A DNA stretch of 45,204 nt from the sequence record NC_073085.1; one strand, 5' to 3'. A model generated the notes under the pieces. It made no database searches. It was not told the DNA's origin and saw only the letters and a program-made list of their open reading frames with translations. Positions 1 to 45,204 of this stretch are shown here, one piece after another. Source of the DNA: Escherichia phage vB_EcoS_011D5. Positions within the stretch are counted from its first letter, which is position 1. Each line of letters begins with the position of its first letter. Both the position numbers and the translations under genes were made by a program.

Positions 1-115
1 ACCCATCGCTACGCCGTGCGGGAATTTCTTCTTGAGACGCGCCAGATCATGCTTGTACTGGTATGCGACGAGCAACGGCGCGCCGTTCAACTCCTCCACG
101 ATACTTTCCAGCGCG
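1..115. repeat. Terminal overlap: 1-115 identical to 45090-45204 (circular closure or terminal redundancy)
   Basis: Exact sequence identity of the window ends; helicase ORF is continuous across the junction. Confidence 0.9.
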
Positions 116-1083
116 TCCAGTTTAGCGTCGTGAATTTTCACCCATTCGTCGGTGCGCTCGCCGTCTTCGTCGACTTTATACACGGCCCCGGAAGCAAGCT
201 GAAGGCACTTAATAGTCTTCGACGCAGCGTTCGCCGCCTCCACAGTTCCGCTTTCCAGTTCCGCAAATAGCTCCGCTTCGAACTGGTCATAAATCTTGCG
301 GGCTTTCTTCGGCAGGTCCACTACAACCGGCGTATAGATTGGCTTGTCACATCCGAAGTATTCAGCCGCATCAACGGTGAGCGATACGTCAGACAGGCGT
401 TGTTGTATTTCTTTCTCGGAGTTCTTGAGCGGGGCGTGCTGCATAGTGAAGCTGCCAGGCTTAACAGGCTTGCTAATAAACCAGCGATCCGTAAATGCCT
501 TATAGCTACTGCCGAGGCGTTCGCCACCATCGACAAACCACGTCTGACCCCATAGATCTTTCAGTCCGTTTGGTGCGGGTGTTCCGGTTAGGTTAATCCA
601 GCGCTTGACGTGCTTATGTGCGATCGCCGCCAGCGCACGGGCGCGCTTACTTCCCTGCTTGCTTCGATAGCCTTTCAGCTTAGTCGATTCATCGGCAACC
701 ACGACCGTAAAGGGCCACTCGTCGCCGCAATACTCGACAAGCCACTCGACCACATCATAGTTAACACAAACCACGTTAGCGTCGCTCTCAAGCGCAGCGA
801 TGCGGTCCTTCTCTGGCCCGGTGCCGTCTACTACCAGCAAGGCTGGGAAGCGCCATTTCTCCTGTTCTGGGGGCCATGTACCGGACGCAACGCGCAGCGG
901 GGCCAGCACCAGTACGCGGTCCTCCTGGTTGGACAGGATACCGGTCTGGAACATTTTATTCAGTGCCCACATGGTCGCGCCGGTTTTACCCGACCCCATT
1001 GTCGCCCATATATTGCATCGCTTATGCTTGAGGATGAACGCGGTTATCAACTTCTGATATTCGCGGCGTCGGAATCGTGCCAT
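1..1083 (-). CDS. SNF2/DEAD-like helicase, N-terminal part (gene crosses the linearisation point, continues at 45089 down to 44748; ~474 aa in total)
   Basis: Minus-strand frame open from ATG ~1083 to window edge; Walker A ...ATMGSGKTGAT... (~970-1011); DExx-like box VVVADESTKLKGY (~700-780); frame matches C-terminal ORF 44748-45188. Confidence 0.8.
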   Translation of the reverse strand, partial: MARFRRREYQKLITAFILKHKRCNIWATMGSGKTGATMWALNKMFQTGILSNQEDRVLVLAPLRVASGTWPPEQEKWRFPALLVVDGTGPEKDRIAALESDANVVCVNYDVVEWLVEYCGDEWPFTVVVADESTKLKGYRSKQGSKRARALAAIAHKHVKRWINLTGTPAPNGLKDLWGQTWFVDGGERLGSSYKAFTDRWFISKPVKPGSFTMQHAPLKNSEKEIQQRLSDVSLTVDAAEYFGCDKPIYTPVVVDLPKKARKIYDQFEAELFAELESGTVEAANAASKTIKCLQLASGAVYKVDEDGERTDEWVKIHDAKLDALESIVEELNGAPLLVAYQYKHDLARLKKKFPHGVAMG

Positions 1084-1087
1084 ATCT

Positions 1088-1349: not shown

Positions 1350-1523
1350 TTATTCTTGCGCTGCGCGGTAACGGCGCTGCCGTTCACGCTCTTTCTTATT
1401 GCGGCATGATTTGCACTCGGCCCGATACCCGTCCGGGCTGCGCGCAGTCTTGCCGGTGTATTTGTGGAACTGGGATAGCGGTTTAACGCAGCCGCAATTA
1501 CTGCAGCGTTTTTCTTCAATCAT
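1350..1523 (-). CDS. Small zinc-ribbon protein (CxxC...CxxC, basic C-terminus)
   Basis: MIEEKRCSNCGCVKPLSQFHKY...AECKSCRNKKERERQRRYRAAQE; start chosen at internal ATG. Confidence 0.5.
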   Translation of the reverse strand: MIEEKRCSNCGCVKPLSQFHKYTGKTARSPDGYRAECKSCRNKKERERQRRYRAAQE

Positions 1524-5337: not shown

Positions 5338-5427
5338 TTTCCAATTCCTCATTTTCACATGTATCGGGGTTATTATGAGCCACCCCGTTCGGCTTGGTTG
5401 CTAATCTACTTGGTTGCACCTAAGCGG

Positions 5428-8221: not shown

Positions 8222-8456
8222 GGTGTATCTCCGATTGGTTAAGTTTAGGTGTCGACCATTAACTTCGTCGGTGGCCTTAACATAGTGCCCGGTTGCGCGT
8301 TCTCCCTTTCGGGTAGTGGACCGGGTTATATAATCACGGTTGGGAATCCTGACACTTCGATCCGGCCCCTGCGTTGCCCCTCTCCAGTTTGCTTCCTGCA
8401 TCCTGTCGACGAGGTGAATATTAGATTGGTTGCAGAAGGGAGTCAACAACTAATTT

Positions 8457-11226: not shown

Positions 11227-11319
11227 ATTTTGCGCGCATTGGTTGCCATTTTGAGTGTTTTTAGCTGGTCGCATTGGTTGCCGTGTGGTGTAAATATAGT
11301 GAATAGTTATGCAATAAAA

Positions 11320-11490: not shown

Positions 11491-11705
11491 ATAAAATCCG
11501 GGATTGCATAATACACGGCAGCATATTGGAAATCGCGGTCGTCGCTGAACTAGGCAACCAATGCGAGTTGCAGAATGGTGGGTGGGGAATGCAGTTTGCA
11601 GTTACAGCAGATAGCGATCAACTTTTTCATGCGCATGATTAATATTGGTTGCATTCGTGCCAGCACCCTGCTAGATTGGTTGCACACCAACAAGAGGACT
11701 GAACA

Positions 11706-12040: not shown

Positions 12041-12310
12041 ATGGTCCGCAGACGAGCTAAACAGCTTTCGTGGCATATTCCACTGCATTGTATACGCATA
12101 TGGGCTAAGAATGCGACTGAGGGCGATTCTGTGTTCTGGAGCTATCGCGACGATGTGAAGCCGTTGACGCAGACACGCTACTTGCACCAGTTCGCAGCAA
12201 AACACGATTTCAGGGTGCGGACCTCCTTGCAACCAATGGGAATCCGTATTACATTACGCCGGAAGCCCGCCGTTGAGCGGGTAGGCAAACACTGGAGACT
12301 AAGCAAATGA
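12041..12310 (+). CDS. Hypothetical protein (89 aa)
   Basis: ORF-track; operon context. Confidence 0.45.
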   Translation: MVRRRAKQLSWHIPLHCIRIWAKNATEGDSVFWSYRDDVKPLTQTRYLHQFAAKHDFRVRTSLQPMGIRITLRRKPAVERVGKHWRLSK

Positions 12311-14996: not shown

Positions 14997-15059
14997 TTGC
15001 TTGACTTGCAACCAACATAGACGCCATACTGCGACCAATCAACGAGAGGAGTAATCACG

Positions 15060-16649: not shown

Positions 16650-17222
16650 ATGAACAAAAGGGCTTATATCATGGCAGAAATCAAAGTTAAGGGCCGACGC
16701 GCCAAACTGGACGGACGAGTAGCAGTAACCCCGCGCCGTAAACCAGGCGAGCAAACCGAGCACACCAATCTCGGACCTGAAATAGAGTACGGAAAGCGCC
16801 GTAAAGGCGGCAAATGTGGACGCCCTACTGACTACAGATCCGTCTACTGCGACCAGCTTCGCCGCTATTTTGCCGACGCCGACGCCTGGCAGGTCAACTA
16901 CTCAGATAAAGGCGCTGCGCAAGTAATCCCCCGCAACAAAATGCCAACCTTCGGGCGATTTGCCGCGGAAATAGGCGTGGGTGTAGCTTGCCTGTATCGC
17001 TGGGCGCGTGCGCATGAGGAGTTCGCCGAGGCGATGGCTGACGCTATGGAGTTGCAGAAAACCTTCCTGATGGAAGCTGGCGGTGTGACCATCGCGGCGG
17101 GCTTCGCTACATTCCTGCTTAAAGCAAACCACGGCGTCCGCGACGATGTGCCGCTGGATGACGACGAAGATGATAACGGCGACGTCGTTGTGGAACCTAC
17201 CGGCAAAGGCCAGGGCGAATAA
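16650..17222 (+). CDS. Terminase small subunit
   Basis: HTH-like MPTFGRFAAEIGVGVACLYRWARAHEEFAEAM typical of TerS; directly upstream of TerL; acidic C-terminus. Confidence 0.7.
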   Translation: MNKRAYIMAEIKVKGRRAKLDGRVAVTPRRKPGEQTEHTNLGPEIEYGKRRKGGKCGRPTDYRSVYCDQLRRYFADADAWQVNYSDKGAAQVIPRNKMPTFGRFAAEIGVGVACLYRWARAHEEFAEAMADAMELQKTFLMEAGGVTIAAGFATFLLKANHGVRDDVPLDDDEDDNGDVVVEPTGKGQGE

Positions 17223-18607
17223 TGCGTAACTATGCGGCAGAACACCGCGCACTGGAGCGCGCGATCGCAAAGCGCAACCGACCGCCACGCCCGACACGCG
17301 TTGCGCAGGCCGTCCGCCTTTACCAGCCTGATTGCTTGCCGCACCAGGTTGAACTACTGCGCGACACGAAGACTAAAATCCTCGGCCTGTGTTCCGGCTT
17401 CGGTGGCGGAAAGTCGTGGGTCGCTGCGCGTAAGGTCATCCAGCTTTTAACCCTGAACCCCGGTCATGACGGCATCGTTACAGAACCGACTATTCCCCTC
17501 CTGGTTAAAATCATGTACCCGGAATTGGAAAAGGCGTTTGATGAGGCTGGATTCCGGTGGAAGTTCAATAAGCAGGACAAGATCTATAACGTGCTGGTGA
17601 AAGGGAAATGGACCCGCGTTATCTGTGAATCAATGGAGAACTATACCCGCTTGATCGGGGTTAACGCCGCGTGGATTGTTGCCGATGAATTCGACACTAC
17701 TAAGCAAGACGTCGCGCTGGCGGCATATCACAAATTGCTCGGTCGTCTGCGTGCTGGCTTCGTCCGCCAGTTCGTCATCGTGTCAACGCCTGAAGGCTAC
17801 CGGGCGATGTATCAAATTTTCGAGGTGGAGAAAGACAACCAGAAACGCTTGATCCGGGCGAAGACCACGGACAACCACCATTTACCGGCAGACTTTATCG
17901 ACACGCTGCGTAGTCAGTACCCAGCTAACCTGATCGACGCGTACCTGAACGGCCTGTTTGTTAACCTTACGTCGGGCGCGGTGTACAAGATGTTCAACCG
18001 CGAGGAGAACGCCAGCACCGAAGAAGTGCAGCCGGACGACACGCTGATTATCGGTATGGACTTTAACGTTACGAAGATGGCGGCGGTTGTGTACGTCAGA
18101 CGGCAGCGAGTCACCGAGAACAAGGAGTTCCGAGACGAGATTCACGCGGTGGATGAATTTGTGGACCTGTTTGATACCCCGGCTATGATTGAGGCGATCG
18201 AGGAGCGCTACCCGGATCATTGTGCTGCCGGTCGTGTTGTCGTTTACCCGGATAGCAGCGGCAAATCACGCAAGACGGTCAACGCGTCGTCGTCCGATAT
18301 CGCGCAACTGGAAGACGCAGGCTTTGATGTGGAGTATGACAGCGTTAACCCGCCTGTTAAAGACCGATTGATCGCGATGAATACGATGATGTGCAACTCG
18401 AAGGGCGTGCGCCAGTATTTTGTCAACCTGGATAAATGCCCTACACTAGCGAAATGTCTGGAACAGCAGGTGTACGACCTGAAGAAAGGCGAACCGGATA
18501 AAACTGCCGGTGTGGACCACATGAATGACGCGGCGGGCTACCCTATTGCGCACTTGTTCCCTGTGATTCGTCCGATCGCCGTTGTTCCAGCCGTAGACTT
18601 CTACTAA
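17222..18607 (+). CDS. Terminase large subunit
   Basis: Walker A LGLCSGFGGGKSW; Walker B WIVADEFDT; 461 aa; precedes portal. Confidence 0.85.
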   Translation: MRNYAAEHRALERAIAKRNRPPRPTRVAQAVRLYQPDCLPHQVELLRDTKTKILGLCSGFGGGKSWVAARKVIQLLTLNPGHDGIVTEPTIPLLVKIMYPELEKAFDEAGFRWKFNKQDKIYNVLVKGKWTRVICESMENYTRLIGVNAAWIVADEFDTTKQDVALAAYHKLLGRLRAGFVRQFVIVSTPEGYRAMYQIFEVEKDNQKRLIRAKTTDNHHLPADFIDTLRSQYPANLIDAYLNGLFVNLTSGAVYKMFNREENASTEEVQPDDTLIIGMDFNVTKMAAVVYVRRQRVTENKEFRDEIHAVDEFVDLFDTPAMIEAIEERYPDHCAAGRVVVYPDSSGKSRKTVNASSSDIAQLEDAGFDVEYDSVNPPVKDRLIAMNTMMCNSKGVRQYFVNLDKCPTLAKCLEQQVYDLKKGEPDKTAGVDHMNDAAGYPIAHLFPVIRPIAVVPAVDFY

Positions 18608-22793: not shown

Positions 22794-22947
22794 TTTGTCT
22801 TCCTTCATATCTCTGTTGGTGTGCAACCAATATACTGCAACCAACATTCGCAATGCAAGCGAATTTTGCGATTATTTTTATCGCTGATAATATTAAGGCG
22901 TGAAGTCAAGCGGGTGGCCCGCTTTGCCACAATCCCAGGGGGATAGC

Positions 22948-26454: not shown

Positions 26455-26876
26455 TGAGCAATACCGCAATCCGCAAAGCGCTTAACAGCGTGGTTGAAGA
26501 GTTATCGGCAAGCCTGAGCACAAGCCAGCGTCCGATTAGGGTTAACTGGGAGAACGTGAGCGGCGACCACGCAAACGGCAGCGGTGTCTACCTGGAGCCG
26601 TACCTGCTACCGGCCCCGACCCAGTTTGTGGGCTTACAGCAGAAGGGTCGGATCTATGCTGGCGTATATCAGGTTGCCGTGGTGTTTCCCGCAGGAACTG
26701 GAACACAGTACGCGAGCGAACTGGCGGACGCCATCGCTACGTCTGATAAGTGGCTGGCGGTGAAGATTTCCGGTGCGTCATTTCAGCTTCAGGACGCGCC
26801 ATACACCAGTTCAGTGATTGAAGACGTTGATCGCGCCCGCATCGTGGTTACAGTACCCTACACCTGTTGCGCCTGA
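26454..26876 (+). CDS. Putative tail terminator protein
   Basis: Synteny immediately upstream of the major tail protein gene. Confidence 0.45.
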   Translation: MSNTAIRKALNSVVEELSASLSTSQRPIRVNWENVSGDHANGSGVYLEPYLLPAPTQFVGLQQKGRIYAGVYQVAVVFPAGTGTQYASELADAIATSDKWLAVKISGASFQLQDAPYTSSVIEDVDRARIVVTVPYTCCA

Positions 26877-26937
26877 TTTGGCGCTATTCTGCGCGTGCTG
26901 TATCATTAAACCGTATATCTAAACAGGAGCGTTCATT

Positions 26938-27663
26938 ATGGGTTATCAACTTCCTAACGGGTCTAGCGTCCAGATTGGGTCCGTACTGGGCAACGGTATC
27001 GCTGTTACGGCAGCTACCAACGCCGCCGCGTCGATCTCTGATCTTACGAAAGGTTGCGTTATCACCTGCGCGGCTTCTCATGGCCTGCAAGTTGGTGACG
27101 TGGTTATGTTCACTAAAACCCCGTGGGTACGTGCGCTGAACCGCGCGTTTATCGTGGGTAAAGTGGCGACTAACGACGTTACACTGGCGCGCTTCGACAC
27201 CTCGGACGTTACCAAATATCCTACCGGTGCTTTCGGCGTAGGCACACCAGGCGAGGTGGTGAAGGTGTCGAGCTTTATCGACTTCCCGTTTATCACTAAC
27301 GTCGCCGTGTCTGGTGGCGACCAGCAGACTACTACCTTCCAGCCGTTGCAGGTGAATACCGCGATCAGTCTGAACACCACGAAAAACCCGTTGGTCCAGA
27401 CCTACACTTTCACCCACGACGAAGAAGACCCGATCCGCCCGATTCTGGAAGACCTGGACGACACACAGAAAACCACTGTGATTAAGTTCACCAACCCGGC
27501 AGCGGCAAGCGGCAAAGGTGAGATCCGCATTTACCCGGCTAAGGTGTCTTTCCAGAAGATTCCATCTGCTGAAGTAAACAACGTGGAGACGGTGGAGTCC
27601 ACCCTCACTATGCAGTCCGATATGGTTATTTACCGTAAGGATTTGGTCGAGGCGCTGTCGTAA
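26938..27663 (+). CDS. Major tail (tube) protein
   Basis: 241 aa; RBS CAGGAG; followed by strong terminator and G/T chaperone genes. Confidence 0.7.
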   Translation: MGYQLPNGSSVQIGSVLGNGIAVTAATNAAASISDLTKGCVITCAASHGLQVGDVVMFTKTPWVRALNRAFIVGKVATNDVTLARFDTSDVTKYPTGAFGVGTPGEVVKVSSFIDFPFITNVAVSGGDQQTTTFQPLQVNTAISLNTTKNPLVQTYTFTHDEEDPIRPILEDLDDTQKTTVIKFTNPAAASGKGEIRIYPAKVSFQKIPSAEVNNVETVESTLTMQSDMVIYRKDLVEALS

Positions 27664-38868: not shown

Positions 38869-38948
38869 GGTATCATCCCCTATATTTGGTTGAGTTTTAG
38901 TATTGCACCGCTCAACCAAGAATGCAACCAATTTATGAGGATTCAGCT

Positions 38949-41730: not shown

Positions 41731-41794
41731 AGTATTACCCTTTTTAGTGAGGGGGCTTTATTGCCCCCGACACGTTTAATATAGTGCAACCAAC

Positions 41795-42265
41795 CTATTG
41801 GTTGCAAGTGAATTTTGCAACGTTTATTGCGTAAATTTTCGGGACCAAATCACCACACGCCCGACGAATTGCCGCGATGTTCTTCTCGCAATCTTCAATG
41901 ATGACCAGTTCCGACACGTCCGCATAGCAGACCATTTTGAACACGGCGCACGCCTTAAACTCTGGCGGCGGGGTGTCGTCCAGCATGTGGCGCATAAACA
42001 ACCGGCCTACCGGGAAGACCTCCAATTGCTCGGCGGTGGTGTCCCAGCATTCTCGCTGCCGGTTGGTCAGATACGCGATCTCGAAGCCTCGCTCTTTGTA
42101 CATGCGCAGCAACGGCAGCATATCCATATTCAGGTCTTCGCGTACGTGCGCCTTGTGCCACTTCGCCCAAAAGGTGGATTTAGTTTTTATACCAGGCACC
42201 AGGTCGGCGCGCGCATCGCTTGAACCGTTAATAACTCCATCCAAATCGCAAATCAGTAATTTCAT
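41795..42265 (-). CDS. HAD-superfamily phosphatase / nucleotidase-like
   Basis: Motif I LICDLDGVI; motif II YLTNR; C-terminal acidic motif IIEDCEKN. Confidence 0.7.
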   Translation of the reverse strand: MKLLICDLDGVINGSSDARADLVPGIKTKSTFWAKWHKAHVREDLNMDMLPLLRMYKERGFEIAYLTNRQRECWDTTAEQLEVFPVGRLFMRHMLDDTPPPEFKACAVFKMVCYADVSELVIIEDCEKNIAAIRRACGDLVPKIYAINVAKFTCNQ

Positions 42266-43640: not shown

Positions 43641-43720
43641 CGTGTTGTCTCCGGGTATTAAAAAGGGCGTCCAACCGGACACCCTTAAGATAATGCAACC
43701 AATATGATTATGCAACCAAT

Positions 43721-44044
43721 TTACGAATAAAAATTTGGGTCGCGCGCTACGTCTACCAGATACAGATTGCTCATGCGGTTGCCGTAGTGCCCTGGTGTGC
43801 GCTGGCGGCACACAACGGCGAAGCCTGGGGGAATTGTATTGCCCGTCTCGATAATCCACGCCACGCGTGCGCCAGACAGCGTCTTGCCGTTGTATTCGAT
43901 GCGCGTGCCACCATCGGCAGTGTTAAGGTTGCCAATCTTACAGCCTGTGGACTTCAGGCGAATGACACCGGTCTTGCTGTCGTAGGAAAAAAGCTGATTG
44001 GTCATTGCCACTGAAAAGTCGATTGCGTCGAATGCAGTATTCAT
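43721..44044 (-). CDS. HNH-endonuclease-like protein with substituted catalytic residues
   Basis: Scaffold YDSKTGVIRLKS...GTRIEYNGKTLSGARVAWIIETG resembles phage HNH homing endonucleases, but the usual HRVAW / VDHING positions read ARVAW / VVCRQR. Confidence 0.5.
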   Translation of the reverse strand: MNTAFDAIDFSVAMTNQLFSYDSKTGVIRLKSTGCKIGNLNTADGGTRIEYNGKTLSGARVAWIIETGNTIPPGFAVVCRQRTPGHYGNRMSNLYLVDVARDPNFYS

Positions 44045-44751
44045 TTTAAATTTTCCTCGTTAACCGCTATCGCGAAGCCGCGCGGGGTGAGTGAGCGGAT
44101 TAATTTTGTACGAGCGGATTTACCACCGAGGCGACTATACTGCTTCGAGTACCCATTTTCAACGAAAACAGGTTTCTTCTCTGGCATACGGAAGCCGTTG
44201 CCGGTCCATAAGCAGGTCAGCTTCGGATATGAATCGCGGGCGTTGATGTATTCCGGGAATAACGGGTGCACGTCATCCTCCGGCAGATATCCACCATACT
44301 CCCACGGGTTAAACGAGTGGTCCGGCTTGCGCCATTGGGTCGATAGCACGCTGCGCGGATTCTCAATCATATATGGCACTTCGAAGAAGTCCCCCAGGTA
44401 AGCGGCGATCTTCGCGGTGCGCACCGCCTTAAGCTGAAAGGCCGGGTCTTTGGCCCGCTTGCGCGGGAAAGCTGGCGCACCGCTAACTGCCAGATCCGTA
44501 CACAGCGGGAACGCATATATGATATCCGGCGTACCGAAATCGCCATTCATCGCGCGGTCTACAAAGTCCAGATCGATAAACTCATTGCGATATCGGATCC
44601 CGCGACCATAAATCCGGTAGTCTAGGTACGACCCGTGGTCGGCTTCGGAGTAGTTGAAGCAATAACACTTATGCCCCATCTCGGCAGCACGCTCAATCAT
44701 CAAGCCGCTGCCGTCAAACAATGACCAGATTGTCATTTTAGCAATAGTCAT
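44041..44751 (-). CDS. DNA cytosine-C5 methyltransferase-like protein (short, divergent)
   Basis: Motif I-like LFDGSGLM; motif IV-like AFPLCTDLAVSG (PLC instead of PCQ); motif VI-like MIENPRS; LTPRGF near C-terminus; ATGA coupling to helicase stop. Confidence 0.65.
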   Translation of the reverse strand: MTIAKMTIWSLFDGSGLMIERAAEMGHKCYCFNYSEADHGSYLDYRIYGRGIRYRNEFIDLDFVDRAMNGDFGTPDIIYAFPLCTDLAVSGAPAFPRKRAKDPAFQLKAVRTAKIAAYLGDFFEVPYMIENPRSVLSTQWRKPDHSFNPWEYGGYLPEDDVHPLFPEYINARDSYPKLTCLWTGNGFRMPEKKPVFVENGYSKQYSRLGGKSARTKLIRSLTPRGFAIAVNEENLK

Positions 44752-45204
44752 TTGCGCGCCTTTTTAGCTTTCATGTATTCCATCAAGTCGTCCTGAATAT
44801 CTCGCTTACTGTCGCGACGTTCGGCGACCAGTTCATCCAGTGTCCCGCGCGCCTGGATAATGTAGACGAATACCGGACGAGGGTGTCCGGCTTGCATCTG
44901 GCGAACCGGCCCTATACGCTCCACAATCTGCGAAAAGTGCTCATAGTTCCAGGTGTCTGAGAAGATAGCAAGGTGGTGCCCCCCATCCTGCAGGTTAAGT
45001 CCGTGACCCGCTGACGCTGGGTGTGCAAACATGATGGGGATCTCGCCCCTGTTCCACGCTTCCATATCCTTATTTCCTTGCTTACCCTTACCCATCGCTA
45101 CGCCGTGCGGGAATTTCTTCTTGAGACGCGCCAGATCATGCTTGTACTGGTATGCGACGAGCAACGGCGCGCCGTTCAACTCCTCCACGATACTTTCCAG
45201 CGCG
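44748..45204 (-). CDS. SNF2/DEAD-like helicase, C-terminal part (helicase motif VI-like HPASAGHGLNLQ)
   Basis: ORF-track 44748..45188 has no true start (GTG in-frame) and continues upstream into the duplicated end. Confidence 0.8.
   Translation of the reverse strand, partial: ALESIVEELNGAPLLVAYQYKHDLARLKKKFPHGVAMGKGKQGNKDMEAWNRGEIPIMFAHPASAGHGLNLQDGGHHLAIFSDTWNYEHFSQIVERIGPVRQMQAGHPRPVFVYIIQARGTLDELVAERRDSKRDIQDDLMEYMKAKKARK

What the first reader, a model, noticed from the sequence alone, without database searches (positions are those of the whole stretch)
43721..44044. HNH-endonuclease-like protein with the catalytic histidines apparently replaced
The sequence follows the phage HNH homing-endonuclease scaffold, but where family members have H-R-V-A-W and V-D-H-I-N-G it reads ARVAW and VVCRQRTPGHYGN. 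That points to a catalytically dead HNH domain kept as a DNA-binding or protein-interaction module, perhaps a terminase-associated or regulatory factor, or a domesticated homing endonuclease.
Basis: partly seen in the sequence, partly recalled or inferred. Interest (0 to 1): 0.45.

Follow-up and report, generated by a model that had tools for sequence, protein, structure and literature searches.

The report
Dead, truncated HNH nuclease domain
A small phage gene labelled "HNH endonuclease" in more than 150 genomes keeps the nuclease fold but has lost the residues that cut DNA, and is still conserved by selection, so it is probably a non-cutting nucleic-acid-binding or partner-binding helper whose role is untested.

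Summary
The window is the complete genome of Escherichia phage vB_EcoS_L-h 1M (Dhillonvirus). The finding is gp63 (43721-44044, minus strand, 107 aa).

It is not decaying. It is present in all 156 Dhillonvirus records and has dN/dS of about 0.06. Homologues at 40-60% identity share the same losses and a new invariant G-H-Y motif.

The conserved neighbour is the SNF2 helicase, not the methyltransferase, and it is not near the terminase.

I read it as a domesticated pseudo-nuclease, most likely acting by nucleic-acid binding in the replication module. That function is inferred, not shown.

Dead copies of this domain recur across the family, so this is a new variant of a known kind, of modest interest.

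A side observation: a genome-wide TTGGTTGCA repeat tracks the zinc-ribbon protein gp02 better than it tracks gp63.

The parts
43721..44044 (-). gp63 CDS, 107 aa including the stop codon. It is a free-standing, degenerate I-HmuI/HNH_3-type domain.
43868..43870 (-). Codon of Ala59, at the position of the conserved His of the canonical 'aHRxaW' strand. The homologues have Pro in eiAU and Leu in P0013.
   Evidence: Alignments and the domain census. The codon was read.
43808..43813 (-). Codons of Val78-Cys79, at the positions of the metal-ligand Asp and the general-base His (I-HmuI Asp74/His75). Cys79 is Leu in P0007-P0010 and Pro in P0013, so it is not a conserved substitute.
   Evidence: hhalign, mapping of the canonical profile onto 1u3e, clade alignment.
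43787..43792 (-). Codons of Gly85-His86, part of the clade-specific G-H-Y insertion in the hairpin loop. The His is invariant in every member of the dead clade, and its role is unknown.
   Evidence: His is also present in P0011 (PGHYAQR) and P0013 (STHADQR).
43763..43780 (-). Codons of Asn89-Arg90 through Asn93-Leu94: the retained structural 'NR..NL' core of the HNH_3 motif.
   Evidence: Invariant in the clade and in canonical proteins.
43721..43747 (-). C-terminal tail (residues 100-107 plus the stop codon). It replaces the alpha-helix that carries the metal-binding Asn in active enzymes. It is predicted as coil with lower confidence. Asp102 falls at the spacing of I-HmuI Asn96.
   Evidence: AF2 secondary structure shows no helix after strand 94-98. 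The A4 census shows gaps at the N94/N97 columns. Spacing was counted.
44054..44058 (-). Shine-Dalgarno GAGGA for gp63, inside the 3' end of gp64. The gp64 stop TGA (44041-44043) overlaps the gp63 ATG (44042-44044).
   Evidence: Sequence. The same overlap occurs with the MTase in L006-L008 and with the helicase in L025.
44041..44751 (-). gp64, the upstream neighbour. It is a phrog_757 DNA methyltransferase-like protein, mis-annotated 'putative HNH endonuclease' in this record. It is not an obligate partner of gp63.
44748..45204 (-). C-terminal part of the SNF2-family helicase. The gene continues at about 1086..1 once the 115-bp terminal duplicate is removed. This is the conserved upstream neighbour of gp63-like genes in every lineage examined.
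43694..43720 (-). Two copies of ATTGGTTGCA, 17 nt apart (43711-43720 and 43694-43703), starting directly after the gp63 stop codon. They belong to a genome-wide repeat family.
   Evidence: A variant pair also follows P0013 in L026.
43658..43688 (-). Conserved 10-bp hairpin followed by a U-run, terminator-like, between gp63 and gp62.
   Evidence: RNA fold and conservation in 11 phages. It was not called by the consensus terminator scan.

Best explanation
gp63 is a domesticated relic of an I-HmuI/HNH_3-type homing endonuclease. It keeps the N-terminal beta-sheet domain and the beta-hairpin of the His-Me finger. It has lost the general-base His, the metal-ligand Asp, the alpha-helix carrying the metal-binding Asn, and the AP2 DNA-binding domain. 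By the canonical mechanism it therefore cannot cleave DNA.

It was fixed next to the SNF2 helicase gene in the common ancestor of Dhillonvirus and Eiauvirus-like phages. It is made as the last gene of the helicase(-methyltransferase) transcription unit, translationally coupled to the gene upstream.

Shown: homology, loss of catalytic elements, purifying selection, core-gene status, conserved position.

Inferred: it acts without catalysis, most likely by binding DNA through the retained beta-sheet surface and the conserved Arg/Lys residues (Arg29, Lys54, Arg60, Arg90), in DNA replication, recombination or modification. Binding a protein partner such as the helicase is the main alternative mode.
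For: - Homology and fold.
- Catalytic positions replaced. They map to I-HmuI Asp74/His75/Asn96 through.
- No C-terminal helix in the model. No AP2 region, since the protein ends at residue 107, whereas canonical relatives continue into an AP2 domain that matches plant AP2/ERF structures.
- Purifying selection: pN/pS 0.098 and median dN/dS 0.059 among 15 close genomes, comparable to gp64 (0.052) and Dam (0.098).
- Core gene: 156 records carry gp63 at >=80% identity and 156 carry the helicase at >=90%.
- Homologues at 40-60% identity (P0006-P0011, P0013) share the same losses and the new invariant His86.
- The position directly downstream of the SNF2 helicase is conserved in Dhillonvirus, EP23, L006-L008, L024, L025, L026 and eiAU.
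- A canonical active HNH_3 gene sits next to the orthologous helicase in Jerseyvirus SS3e, so homing endonuclease genes of this family do visit this locus.
- Weak fusion hints towards DNA binding: a NUMOD-like tail N-terminal to the domain in eiDWF gp31 (E 3e-4, below cut-off) and HTH-like matches C-terminal to it in P0013 (E 0.04-0.1).
- Precedents for dead His-Me fingers or homing-endonuclease relics that keep DNA binding: Smad MH1 (PMC5714182) and CapR (PMC8096241).
Against: - No experiment or structure of a complex exists. DNA binding is inferred only.
- The protein lacks every accessory DNA-binding module that gives canonical family members their specificity.
- The net charge is only about +3.
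- An invariant His86 in the loop, invariant Asp98 and near-invariant Asp102 (at the spacing of the metal-binding Asn) leave a small chance of a rebuilt active site.
- I could not inspect model coordinates to see whether these residues cluster.
- The HTH and NUMOD fusion hints are all below the Pfam thresholds.
Confidence: 0.6

Rival explanations
1. gp63 is a non-catalytic protein-interaction module rather than a DNA binder. Examples would be an accessory or regulatory subunit of the SNF2 helicase it always follows, or a decoy or inhibitor aimed at a host or competitor nuclease.
For: - Invariable placement directly after the helicase, often with overlapping stop and start codons.
- It has no dedicated DNA-binding domain.
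- The clade-specific invariant surface motif PGHY has no counterpart in the DNA-cleaving relatives.
Against: Gene order in phage modules is often inherited without any physical interaction. Orthologous helicases in Jerseyvirus, Kagunavirus and Serratia phage Smarc3 work without any gp63-like gene. No co-folding or co-evolution test could be run.
Confidence: 0.2
2. gp63 is still a nuclease or nickase with a rebuilt active site: His86 as general base and Asp98/Asp102 as metal ligands at shifted positions.
For: His86 is invariant across the whole dead clade, including the most divergent members. Asp98 is invariant and Asp102 nearly so. Asp102 lies 9 residues after the Asn of 'NL', exactly like the metal-binding Asn96 of I-HmuI.
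Against: - The alpha-helix that positions the metal ligand is not predicted, and the tail has lower confidence.
- The acidic residues are not in register in eiAU gp31 or P0011.
- His86 sits in an inserted loop three residues before the structural Asn, not at the end of strand 1.
- Both the Asp and the His of the DH pair are gone.
- No known His-Me finger uses such a geometry (classification in PMC5714182).
Confidence: 0.08
3. gp63 is a specificity or regulatory subunit of the adjacent gp64 DNA methyltransferase-like protein, which is short (236 aa) and might lack its own target-recognition domain.
For: ATGA stop/start overlap and a shared transcription unit with gp64 in Dhillonvirus and in the distant relatives L006-L008 and L024. 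gp64 gives no Pfam hit.
Against: - EP23 keeps gp63 but has no gp64.
- L025 and L026 have gp63-like genes without this MTase.
- eiAU has an unrelated MTase family next to its homologue.
- gp64-type MTases occur in 1507 phage records from many genera that lack gp63.
- About 151 records carry gp64 at >=90% identity, against 156 with gp63.
Confidence: 0.05
4. gp63 is the sequence-specific binder of the genome-wide TTGGTTGCA repeat, and so a transcription or replication regulator derived from a homing endonuclease.
For: - A pair of the motif starts directly after the gp63 stop. This arrangement is conserved even in L026, with a variant motif.
- The motif is strongly enriched in Dhillonvirus (13 copies against 0.30 expected) and eiAU (14 against 0.28). 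It is absent from SS3e and K1H, which lack gp63.
- gp63 is one of only four non-structural proteins shared with eiAU but not with SS3e or K1H.
Against: Serratia phage Smarc3 has 8 exact copies of the motif and no gp63-like gene, but it does have a homologue of the zinc-ribbon protein gp02. gp02 therefore tracks the motif in 6 of 6 genomes and gp63 in only 5 of 6.
Confidence: 0.05
5. gp63 is a decaying, functionless remnant of a homing endonuclease gene.
For: It has lost the catalytic residues, the C-terminal helix and the AP2 domain. One genome, SSL-2009a, has a frameshifted 3' end.
Against: dN/dS is about 0.06, with pS about 0.40 among close genomes. The reading frame is intact and the length is constant across relatives down to 40-60% identity. 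It is present in all 156 Dhillonvirus records.
Confidence: 0.02

Closest known systems
I-HmuI (Bacillus phage SPO1 HNH homing/nicking endonuclease, PDB 1u3e); His-Me finger group 2 of Jablonska et al. 2017
   Different: The Asp74/His75 equivalents are Val/Cys. The helix carrying Asn96 is missing. There are no C-terminal helices or HTH domain. gp63 is 107 aa against 174 aa. There is no detectable sequence match to 1u3e by HMMER.
Phage HNH_3 + AP2 homing endonucleases (PF13392, phrog_99). Examples: Acinetobacter phage APK2-2 gp22, Seuratvirus phiG7 gp67, SS3e orf46
   Same: These are the closest active relatives by profile score (up to 46.9 bits against the gp63 profile). They have the same N-terminal 'fxYdxxtG...G..i...gk' region and the same hairpin.
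   Different: They keep HR, DH and the helix Asn, and carry an AP2 DNA-binding domain. Judging from annotation and scattered positions, they are sporadically distributed. gp63 is a fixed core gene.
Degenerate N-terminal repeats of tandem HNH_3 proteins (architecture 'dead + active'). Examples: P0023, P0030, P0052
   Same: Simultaneous loss of the upstream His and the DH pair, and truncation right after 'NL' with no helix, exactly as in gp63. This shows that dead copies of the domain recur: 22 'dA' and 5 'dd' architectures among 144 non-clade proteins.
   Different: Those copies are fused to an active copy in the same polypeptide. They score lower against the gp63 profile (median 18 bits) and lack the G-H-Y insertion. 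gp63 stands alone, and its genome has no active paralogue.
Smad MH1 domain and ENPP nuclease-like domain (catalytically inactive His-Me fingers)
   Same: A His-Me finger scaffold that lost the catalytic His and was kept for binding. MH1 binds DNA as a transcription factor (PMC5714182).
   Different: They are eukaryotic and unrelated in sequence. They sit within larger multidomain proteins and their binding function is experimentally established.
CapR of the Vibrio cholerae PLE satellite (domesticated homing-endonuclease domain acting as a repressor)
   Same: A relic of a homing endonuclease from the phage world, retained as a non-cutting DNA-binding protein (PMC8096241).
   Different: CapR derives from a different endonuclease family's DNA-binding domain, not from the nuclease domain itself. 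Its target and function are demonstrated.

Membership tests
His-Me finger / HNH_3 (I-HmuI group) | Homologous sequence and beta-sheet plus beta-hairpin fold | tested here: met
His-Me finger / HNH_3 (I-HmuI group) | General-base His at the end of strand 1 (I-HmuI His75) | tested here: not met
   The aligned residue is Cys79. It is Leu or Pro in other clade members.
His-Me finger / HNH_3 (I-HmuI group) | Metal ligands: the Asp preceding the His (Asp74), and the Asn in the alpha-helix (Asn96) | tested here: not met
   The Asp position is Val78 (Thr or Arg in relatives). No helix is predicted after strand 94-98, and the census shows gaps at the Asn columns. Asp102 lies at the Asn96 spacing but in a low-confidence tail. 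That residual possibility is listed as a rival explanation.
His-Me finger / HNH_3 (I-HmuI group) | Structural Asn of the hairpin loop ('dNR') and the 'NL' strand | tested here: met
   Asn89-Arg90 and Asn93-Leu94 are conserved.
His-Me finger / HNH_3 (I-HmuI group) | Passes the curated Pfam HNH_3 (PF13392) threshold | tested here: not met
   No Pfam family at E<=10. No NCBIfam family at E<=1.
Free-standing homing endonuclease gene (mobile element) | Sporadic presence or absence among close relatives, plus an accessory DNA-binding domain (AP2, NUMOD or HTH) | tested here: not met
   gp63 is present in all 156 Dhillonvirus records at a fixed position. It has no AP2, NUMOD or HTH domain. It is under purifying selection.
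Free-standing homing endonuclease gene (mobile element) | Site-specific DNA cleavage activity | not testable with these tools
   This needs an in vitro cleavage assay. The sequence argues against activity.
Terminase-associated HNH (HK97 gp74-like packaging factor) | Located adjacent to the terminase or portal genes, with an intact HNH motif | tested here: not met
   Terminase lies at 16650-18607 on the plus strand. gp63 lies at 43721-44044 on the minus strand, inside the replication/modification operon. The motif is not intact.
Methyltransferase specificity/partner subunit | Obligate co-occurrence with the partner MTase | tested here: not met
   EP23, L025 and L026 lack gp64. eiAU has an unrelated MTase. 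gp64 homologues occur in 1507 records without gp63.
Pseudo-nuclease retained for DNA binding (like Smad MH1 or CapR) | Loss of catalysis together with demonstrable nucleic-acid binding | tested here: inconclusive
   Loss of the catalytic residues and purifying selection are shown. Binding was not tested. The only support is retained conserved basic residues and sub-threshold HTH/NUMOD fusions in relatives.

The most novel reading that the evidence does not exclude
gp63 is an 'anti-homing' or locus-guard protein. It would be a dead copy of an HNH_3 endonuclease that still recognises the ancestral target next to the SNF2 helicase gene. By occupying that site, or by titrating a partner, it would protect the replication module from cleavage and invasion by active HNH_3 homing endonucleases brought in by co-infecting phages. 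This would explain why a nuclease relic is a core gene under strong purifying selection at exactly the kind of site where related phages carry an active copy (SS3e orf46 next to its helicase). Nothing in my evidence excludes this, and nothing tests it directly.
Probability: 0.08. Interest if true: 0.6.

Novelty: new variant of a known kind. Interest (0 to 1): 0.3.

Why it matters
More than 150 deposited phage genomes label this gene 'HNH endonuclease' or 'homing endonuclease'. The evidence here indicates that it cannot be one by the known mechanism, so the annotation misleads genome-safety and phage-therapy assessments as well as comparative counts of homing elements.

Biologically, it is a clean, small example of a nuclease domain itself being retained as a selected core gene after losing catalysis. 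The more familiar case is retention of the accessory DNA-binding domain. The census also shows that such dead copies recur throughout the HNH_3 family.

Its function would be cheap to test, since it is a 107-aa protein from a genetically tractable coliphage genus in the BASEL collection. The result would show what the non-catalytic part of an I-HmuI-like domain can do on its own.

Tried and rejected
1. Pfam, NCBIfam and sequence searches of the PDB with gp63 or its clade profile found nothing. Homology had to be shown through PHROGs, custom HMMs, hhalign and fold comparison.
2. The word-indexed protein search found only close relatives. The exhaustive representative search was needed to reach canonical family members.
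3. The methyltransferase-partner idea was rejected on phyletic grounds.
4. The terminase-associated idea was rejected on position.
5. The pseudogene idea was rejected by dN/dS.
6. I tested whether gp63 descends from the dead N-terminal repeats of tandem proteins. Its best-scoring relatives are active single-domain HNH_3+AP2 proteins, so this is not supported. P0067 (dead, 'A..VVC', still carrying the tail where canonical relatives have AP2; not checked by search) may be an intermediate form.
7. I tested whether gp63 binds the TTGGTTGCA repeat. The idea was initially attractive. It was then weakened by Serratia phage Smarc3, which has the motif and gp02 but no gp63.
8. A collection-wide scan for the motif pair was uninformative.
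9. The consensus promoter/terminator scan did not call the conserved hairpin after gp63. RNA folding and conservation do show it, but covariation support is minimal.
10. Literature searches for Dhillonvirus plus HNH, or for inactive HNH in phages, found nothing on this protein.
11. I could not inspect model coordinates, so the geometry of His86, Asp98 and Asp102 remains unchecked.

Full report
**What the window is.** Megablast of the region matches Escherichia phage vB_EcoS_L-h 1M (OM262540 / NC_073086, 45,204 bp, genus Dhillonvirus) at 100% over its full length. The window is that whole record. The finding corresponds to gp63 at 43721..44044 on the minus strand, 107 aa, annotated 'putative HNH endonuclease'. 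Its ATG (44042-44044) overlaps the TGA of the upstream gene gp64, and a GAGGA lies 9 nt upstream.

**Checking the observation.** Pfam and NCBIfam give no hit at all. Sequence searches of the PDB also find nothing. Homology to the I-HmuI/HNH_3 family is nevertheless robust:
- phrog_99 'HNH endonuclease', E 1.9e-15.
- An HMM built only from 20 canonical HNH_3+AP2 proteins finds gp63 as the single hit in a six-frame scan of the genome, E 2.8e-18.
- Profile-profile comparison of the gp63 clade with those canonical proteins gives probability 99.65, E 4.7e-25.
- The model gives 59 matches at E<=1e-3 in the viral structure library; after two gp63 orthologues, the named ones are mostly annotated HNH or homing endonuclease.

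**Which residues are replaced.** The canonical alignment has invariant W57, D72, H73 and N85-L86-R87. Nearly invariant positions are H53-R54, N81-R82, N94 and N97 (P0021 numbering). The same profile aligns to I-HmuI so that D72/H73 correspond to Asp74/His75 and N94 to Asn96. From my knowledge of Shen et al. 2004, these are the metal ligand, the general base and the second metal ligand.

In gp63 the aligned residues are as follows:
- Ala59 in place of H53.
- Val78 and Cys79 in place of D72/H73.
- His86-Tyr87 as a two-residue insertion.
- Asn89-Arg90 and Asn93-Leu94 retained.

The protein stops 13 residues after 'NL'. The model shows no helix after strand 94-98. In an HMM alignment the columns of the helix Asn are gaps. 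The AP2 domain that follows in canonical relatives, and that matches plant AP2/ERF structures, is absent.

**Is it a decaying relic?** No.
- tblastn finds the gene at >=80% identity in 156 phage records. The adjacent helicase is found at >=90% identity in the same number of records. gp63 is therefore a core gene of the genus.
- Across 15 close genomes, Nei-Gojobori pN/pS is 0.098 and the median dN/dS is 0.059, with pS about 0.40. This is similar to gp64 (0.052) and Dam (0.098) and lower than gp61 (0.18).
- More distant homologues keep the length, the same losses and the new invariant G-H-Y. These are P0007-P0010 at 50-60% identity, Edwardsiella phage eiAU/eiDWF gp31 at about 40%, and metagenomic P0011 and P0013. 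In P0013 the motif reads T-H-A.
- Cys79 is not conserved (Leu or Pro elsewhere), so it is not a functional replacement for the His.

**Context.** The gene lies on the minus strand in the replication/modification operon. The order is DNA polymerase, VRR-NUC, gp02, SNF2 helicase, gp64, gp63, then a conserved intergenic element, gp62, gp61 and Dam. The record carries an exact 115-bp terminal duplication (1-115 = 45090-45204). Removing it joins the 'DNA helicase' fragment gp65 to unannotated sequence at the start of the record, giving one helicase of about 475 aa.

Across lineages the constant upstream neighbour is this helicase:
- Dhillonvirus and the distant relatives L006-L008 and L024 have helicase, gp64, gp63.
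- Shigella phage EP23 has helicase then gp63, with no gp64.
- L025 has helicase then P0011 with an ATGA overlap.
- L026 has helicase, a 60-aa DUF7167 protein, then P0013.
- eiAU has helicase, gp31, then an unrelated C5 methyltransferase.

gp64-type methyltransferases (phrog_757) occur in 1507 phage records from many genera. There is thus no obligate link between gp63 and the methyltransferase in either direction, and none to terminase, which is about 25 kb away on the other strand. Jerseyvirus SS3e, whose helicase is 64% identical, carries a canonical active HNH_3 gene immediately upstream of that helicase. This fits an origin of gp63 from a homing endonuclease that landed at this locus.

**How unusual is a dead copy?** I aligned 227 domain instances from the 157 proteins recovered with the gp63 profile. 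Of these, 167 keep the catalytic His and 60 do not. Outside the gp63 clade the architectures are 74 single active, 31 active-active, 22 dead-active, 5 dead-dead and 2 single dead. The dead N-terminal repeats lose the upstream His and the DH pair together and stop right after 'NL', just as gp63 does.

The domains that score best against the gp63 profile, however, are active single-domain HNH_3+AP2 proteins (up to 46.9 bits). Dead repeats have a median of 18 bits. gp63 most likely arose from a single-domain enzyme. P0067 (dead, 'A...VVC', still with the tail where canonical relatives carry AP2; not checked by search) may be an intermediate. The search profile was built from dead sequences, so these proportions are biased towards dead copies.

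**Mechanism.** The canonical chemistry is not available: there is no general base, no Asp ligand and no helix Asn. What remains is the beta-sheet domain and hairpin that contact DNA in I-HmuI, with conserved basic residues Arg29, Lys54, Arg60 and Arg90.

Two relatives carry sub-threshold hints of fused helix-turn-helix-type modules:
- a NUMOD-like tail in eiDWF gp31, E 3e-4;
- HTH matches in P0013, E 0.04-0.1.

Known precedents are Smad MH1, a dead His-Me finger that binds DNA (PMC5714182), and CapR, a homing-endonuclease relic that acts as a repressor (PMC8096241). I therefore favour a non-catalytic nucleic-acid-binding role in the replication/modification module, with a protein-partner role as the main alternative. 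Neither is shown. An invariant His86 plus Asp98/Asp102, the latter at the spacing of Asn96, keeps a small probability of a rebuilt active site. I could not examine model coordinates to test this.

**A side trail.** Directly after the gp63 stop codon lie two ATTGGTTGCA copies 17 nt apart, followed by a conserved hairpin and U-run. The whole element is nearly invariant even in relatives whose proteins are only 55-60% identical. TTGGTTGCA occurs 13 times in the genome against 0.30 expected. Most copies lie between annotated genes or inside very short ORFs, and they usually occur in pairs.

The distribution across related phages is:
- eiAU has 14 copies against 0.28 expected, with a cluster after its helicase-primase gene.
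- SS3e has none and K1H has one.
- L026 has variant pairs, one of them right after P0013.

Only gp02, gp57, Dam and gp63 are non-structural proteins shared with eiAU but not with SS3e or K1H. This made gp63 a candidate binder. However, Serratia phage Smarc3 has 8 copies of the motif and a gp02 homologue, and no gp63-like gene. The 57-aa zinc-ribbon protein gp02 therefore fits the motif's distribution better. I leave this as a lead about gp02 and assign a low probability to gp63 being the binder.

**Verdict.** The terminase and methyltransferase suggestions are not. This is a new variant of a known kind: a free-standing, truncated pseudo-HNH_3 domain fixed as a core gene. Its practical value is correcting a widespread annotation, and its conceptual interest is modest.

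Noticed in passing
window 43694-43720, 41785-41806, 22822-22845, 15007-15039, 11239-11282, 11645-11684, 12228-12236, 8426-8434, 5394-5418, 1579-1588, 38923-38931; L027 (eiAU) 26869-27643 and others; L150 (Smarc3): The repeat TTGGTTGCA, often ATTGGTTGCA, occurs 13 times exactly in the window (0.30 expected). Most copies lie between annotated genes or inside very short ORFs, and they usually occur in pairs with variable spacing or inverted. It is equally enriched in Edwardsiella phage eiAU (14 copies) and Serratia phage Smarc3 (8 copies). It is absent from the related SS3e and K1H. Its distribution matches that of the 57-aa zinc-ribbon protein gp02 in 6 of 6 genomes. It looks like an operator, iteron or promoter element of a lineage-specific DNA-binding protein.
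   Followed up: partly
window 1-115 and 45090-45204: There is an exact 115-bp terminal duplication, probably an assembly overlap of a circular or permuted contig. It splits the SNF2 helicase gene. gp65 'DNA helicase' (44748-45179) is only the C-terminal third. The N-terminal part (about 1086..1, minus strand) is unannotated.
   Followed up: yes
window 44041-44751 (-): gp64 is annotated 'putative HNH endonuclease' in this record. It is in fact a phrog_757 DNA methyltransferase-like protein (E 7e-82), called a Dcm-like C5 methyltransferase in other records. It gets no Pfam or NCBIfam hit, is only 236 aa, and has homologues in 1507 phage records.
   Followed up: partly
window 1350-1523 (-): gp02 is annotated 'HNH endonuclease' but is a 57-aa CxxC...CxxC zinc ribbon with a basic tail and no HNH motif. 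Other records call it Lar-like or KilA-like. It is conserved in eiAU (64% identity), L026 and Serratia phages.
   Followed up: partly
window 43658-43688 (-): A conserved 10-bp GC-rich hairpin followed by UUUUU lies between gp63 and gp62. It is conserved in all relatives examined. The consensus terminator scan did not call it, and covariation support is minimal.
   Followed up: partly
L020 (Shigella phage EP23) 976-2812: EP23 lacks the gp64 methyltransferase entirely. Its helicase stop is followed within 2 nt by the gp63 homologue, which starts four codons later than in the other phages.
   Followed up: yes
L023 (Escherichia phage SSL-2009a) 2501-2836; P0005: The gp63 orthologue of SSL-2009a is frameshifted after residue 73, giving a 111-aa product with an unrelated tail. 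This is either a sequencing error or a rare inactivated allele.
   Followed up: no
L002 2860-3315 (eiAU-183 gp31); P0006 residues 38-57: The Eiauvirus homologue has a 45-75 aa N-terminal extension. Its end (GVSQVLQGHKKSHRGYVFRR) resembles the C-terminal NUMOD-like tail of I-HmuI (PF22083, E 3e-4, below cut-off). It may be a fused fragment of another endonuclease's DNA-binding module.
   Followed up: partly
L148 (Salmonella phage SS3e) 28368-28787: orf46, annotated hypothetical, is a canonical HNH_3-type endonuclease (custom HMM, E 2e-31). It sits immediately upstream of the SNF2 helicase, the same neighbourhood where gp63 is fixed in Dhillonvirus.
   Followed up: partly
phage records MG065648.1 (Campylobacter phage A144), OQ221563.1 (Acinetobacter phage NJ01), NC_013600.1 (Sodalis phage SO-1): Records named for non-Escherichia hosts are 92-97% identical to Dhillonvirus coliphages across this region. 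The host assignments may reflect contamination or mislabelling.
   Followed up: no
proteins P0012 (1644 aa) and P0019 (2622 aa): Two very large proteins match gp63 residues ~38-100 in 9-13 repeated stretches. They are probably unrelated beta-rich repeats that score by composition.
   Followed up: no
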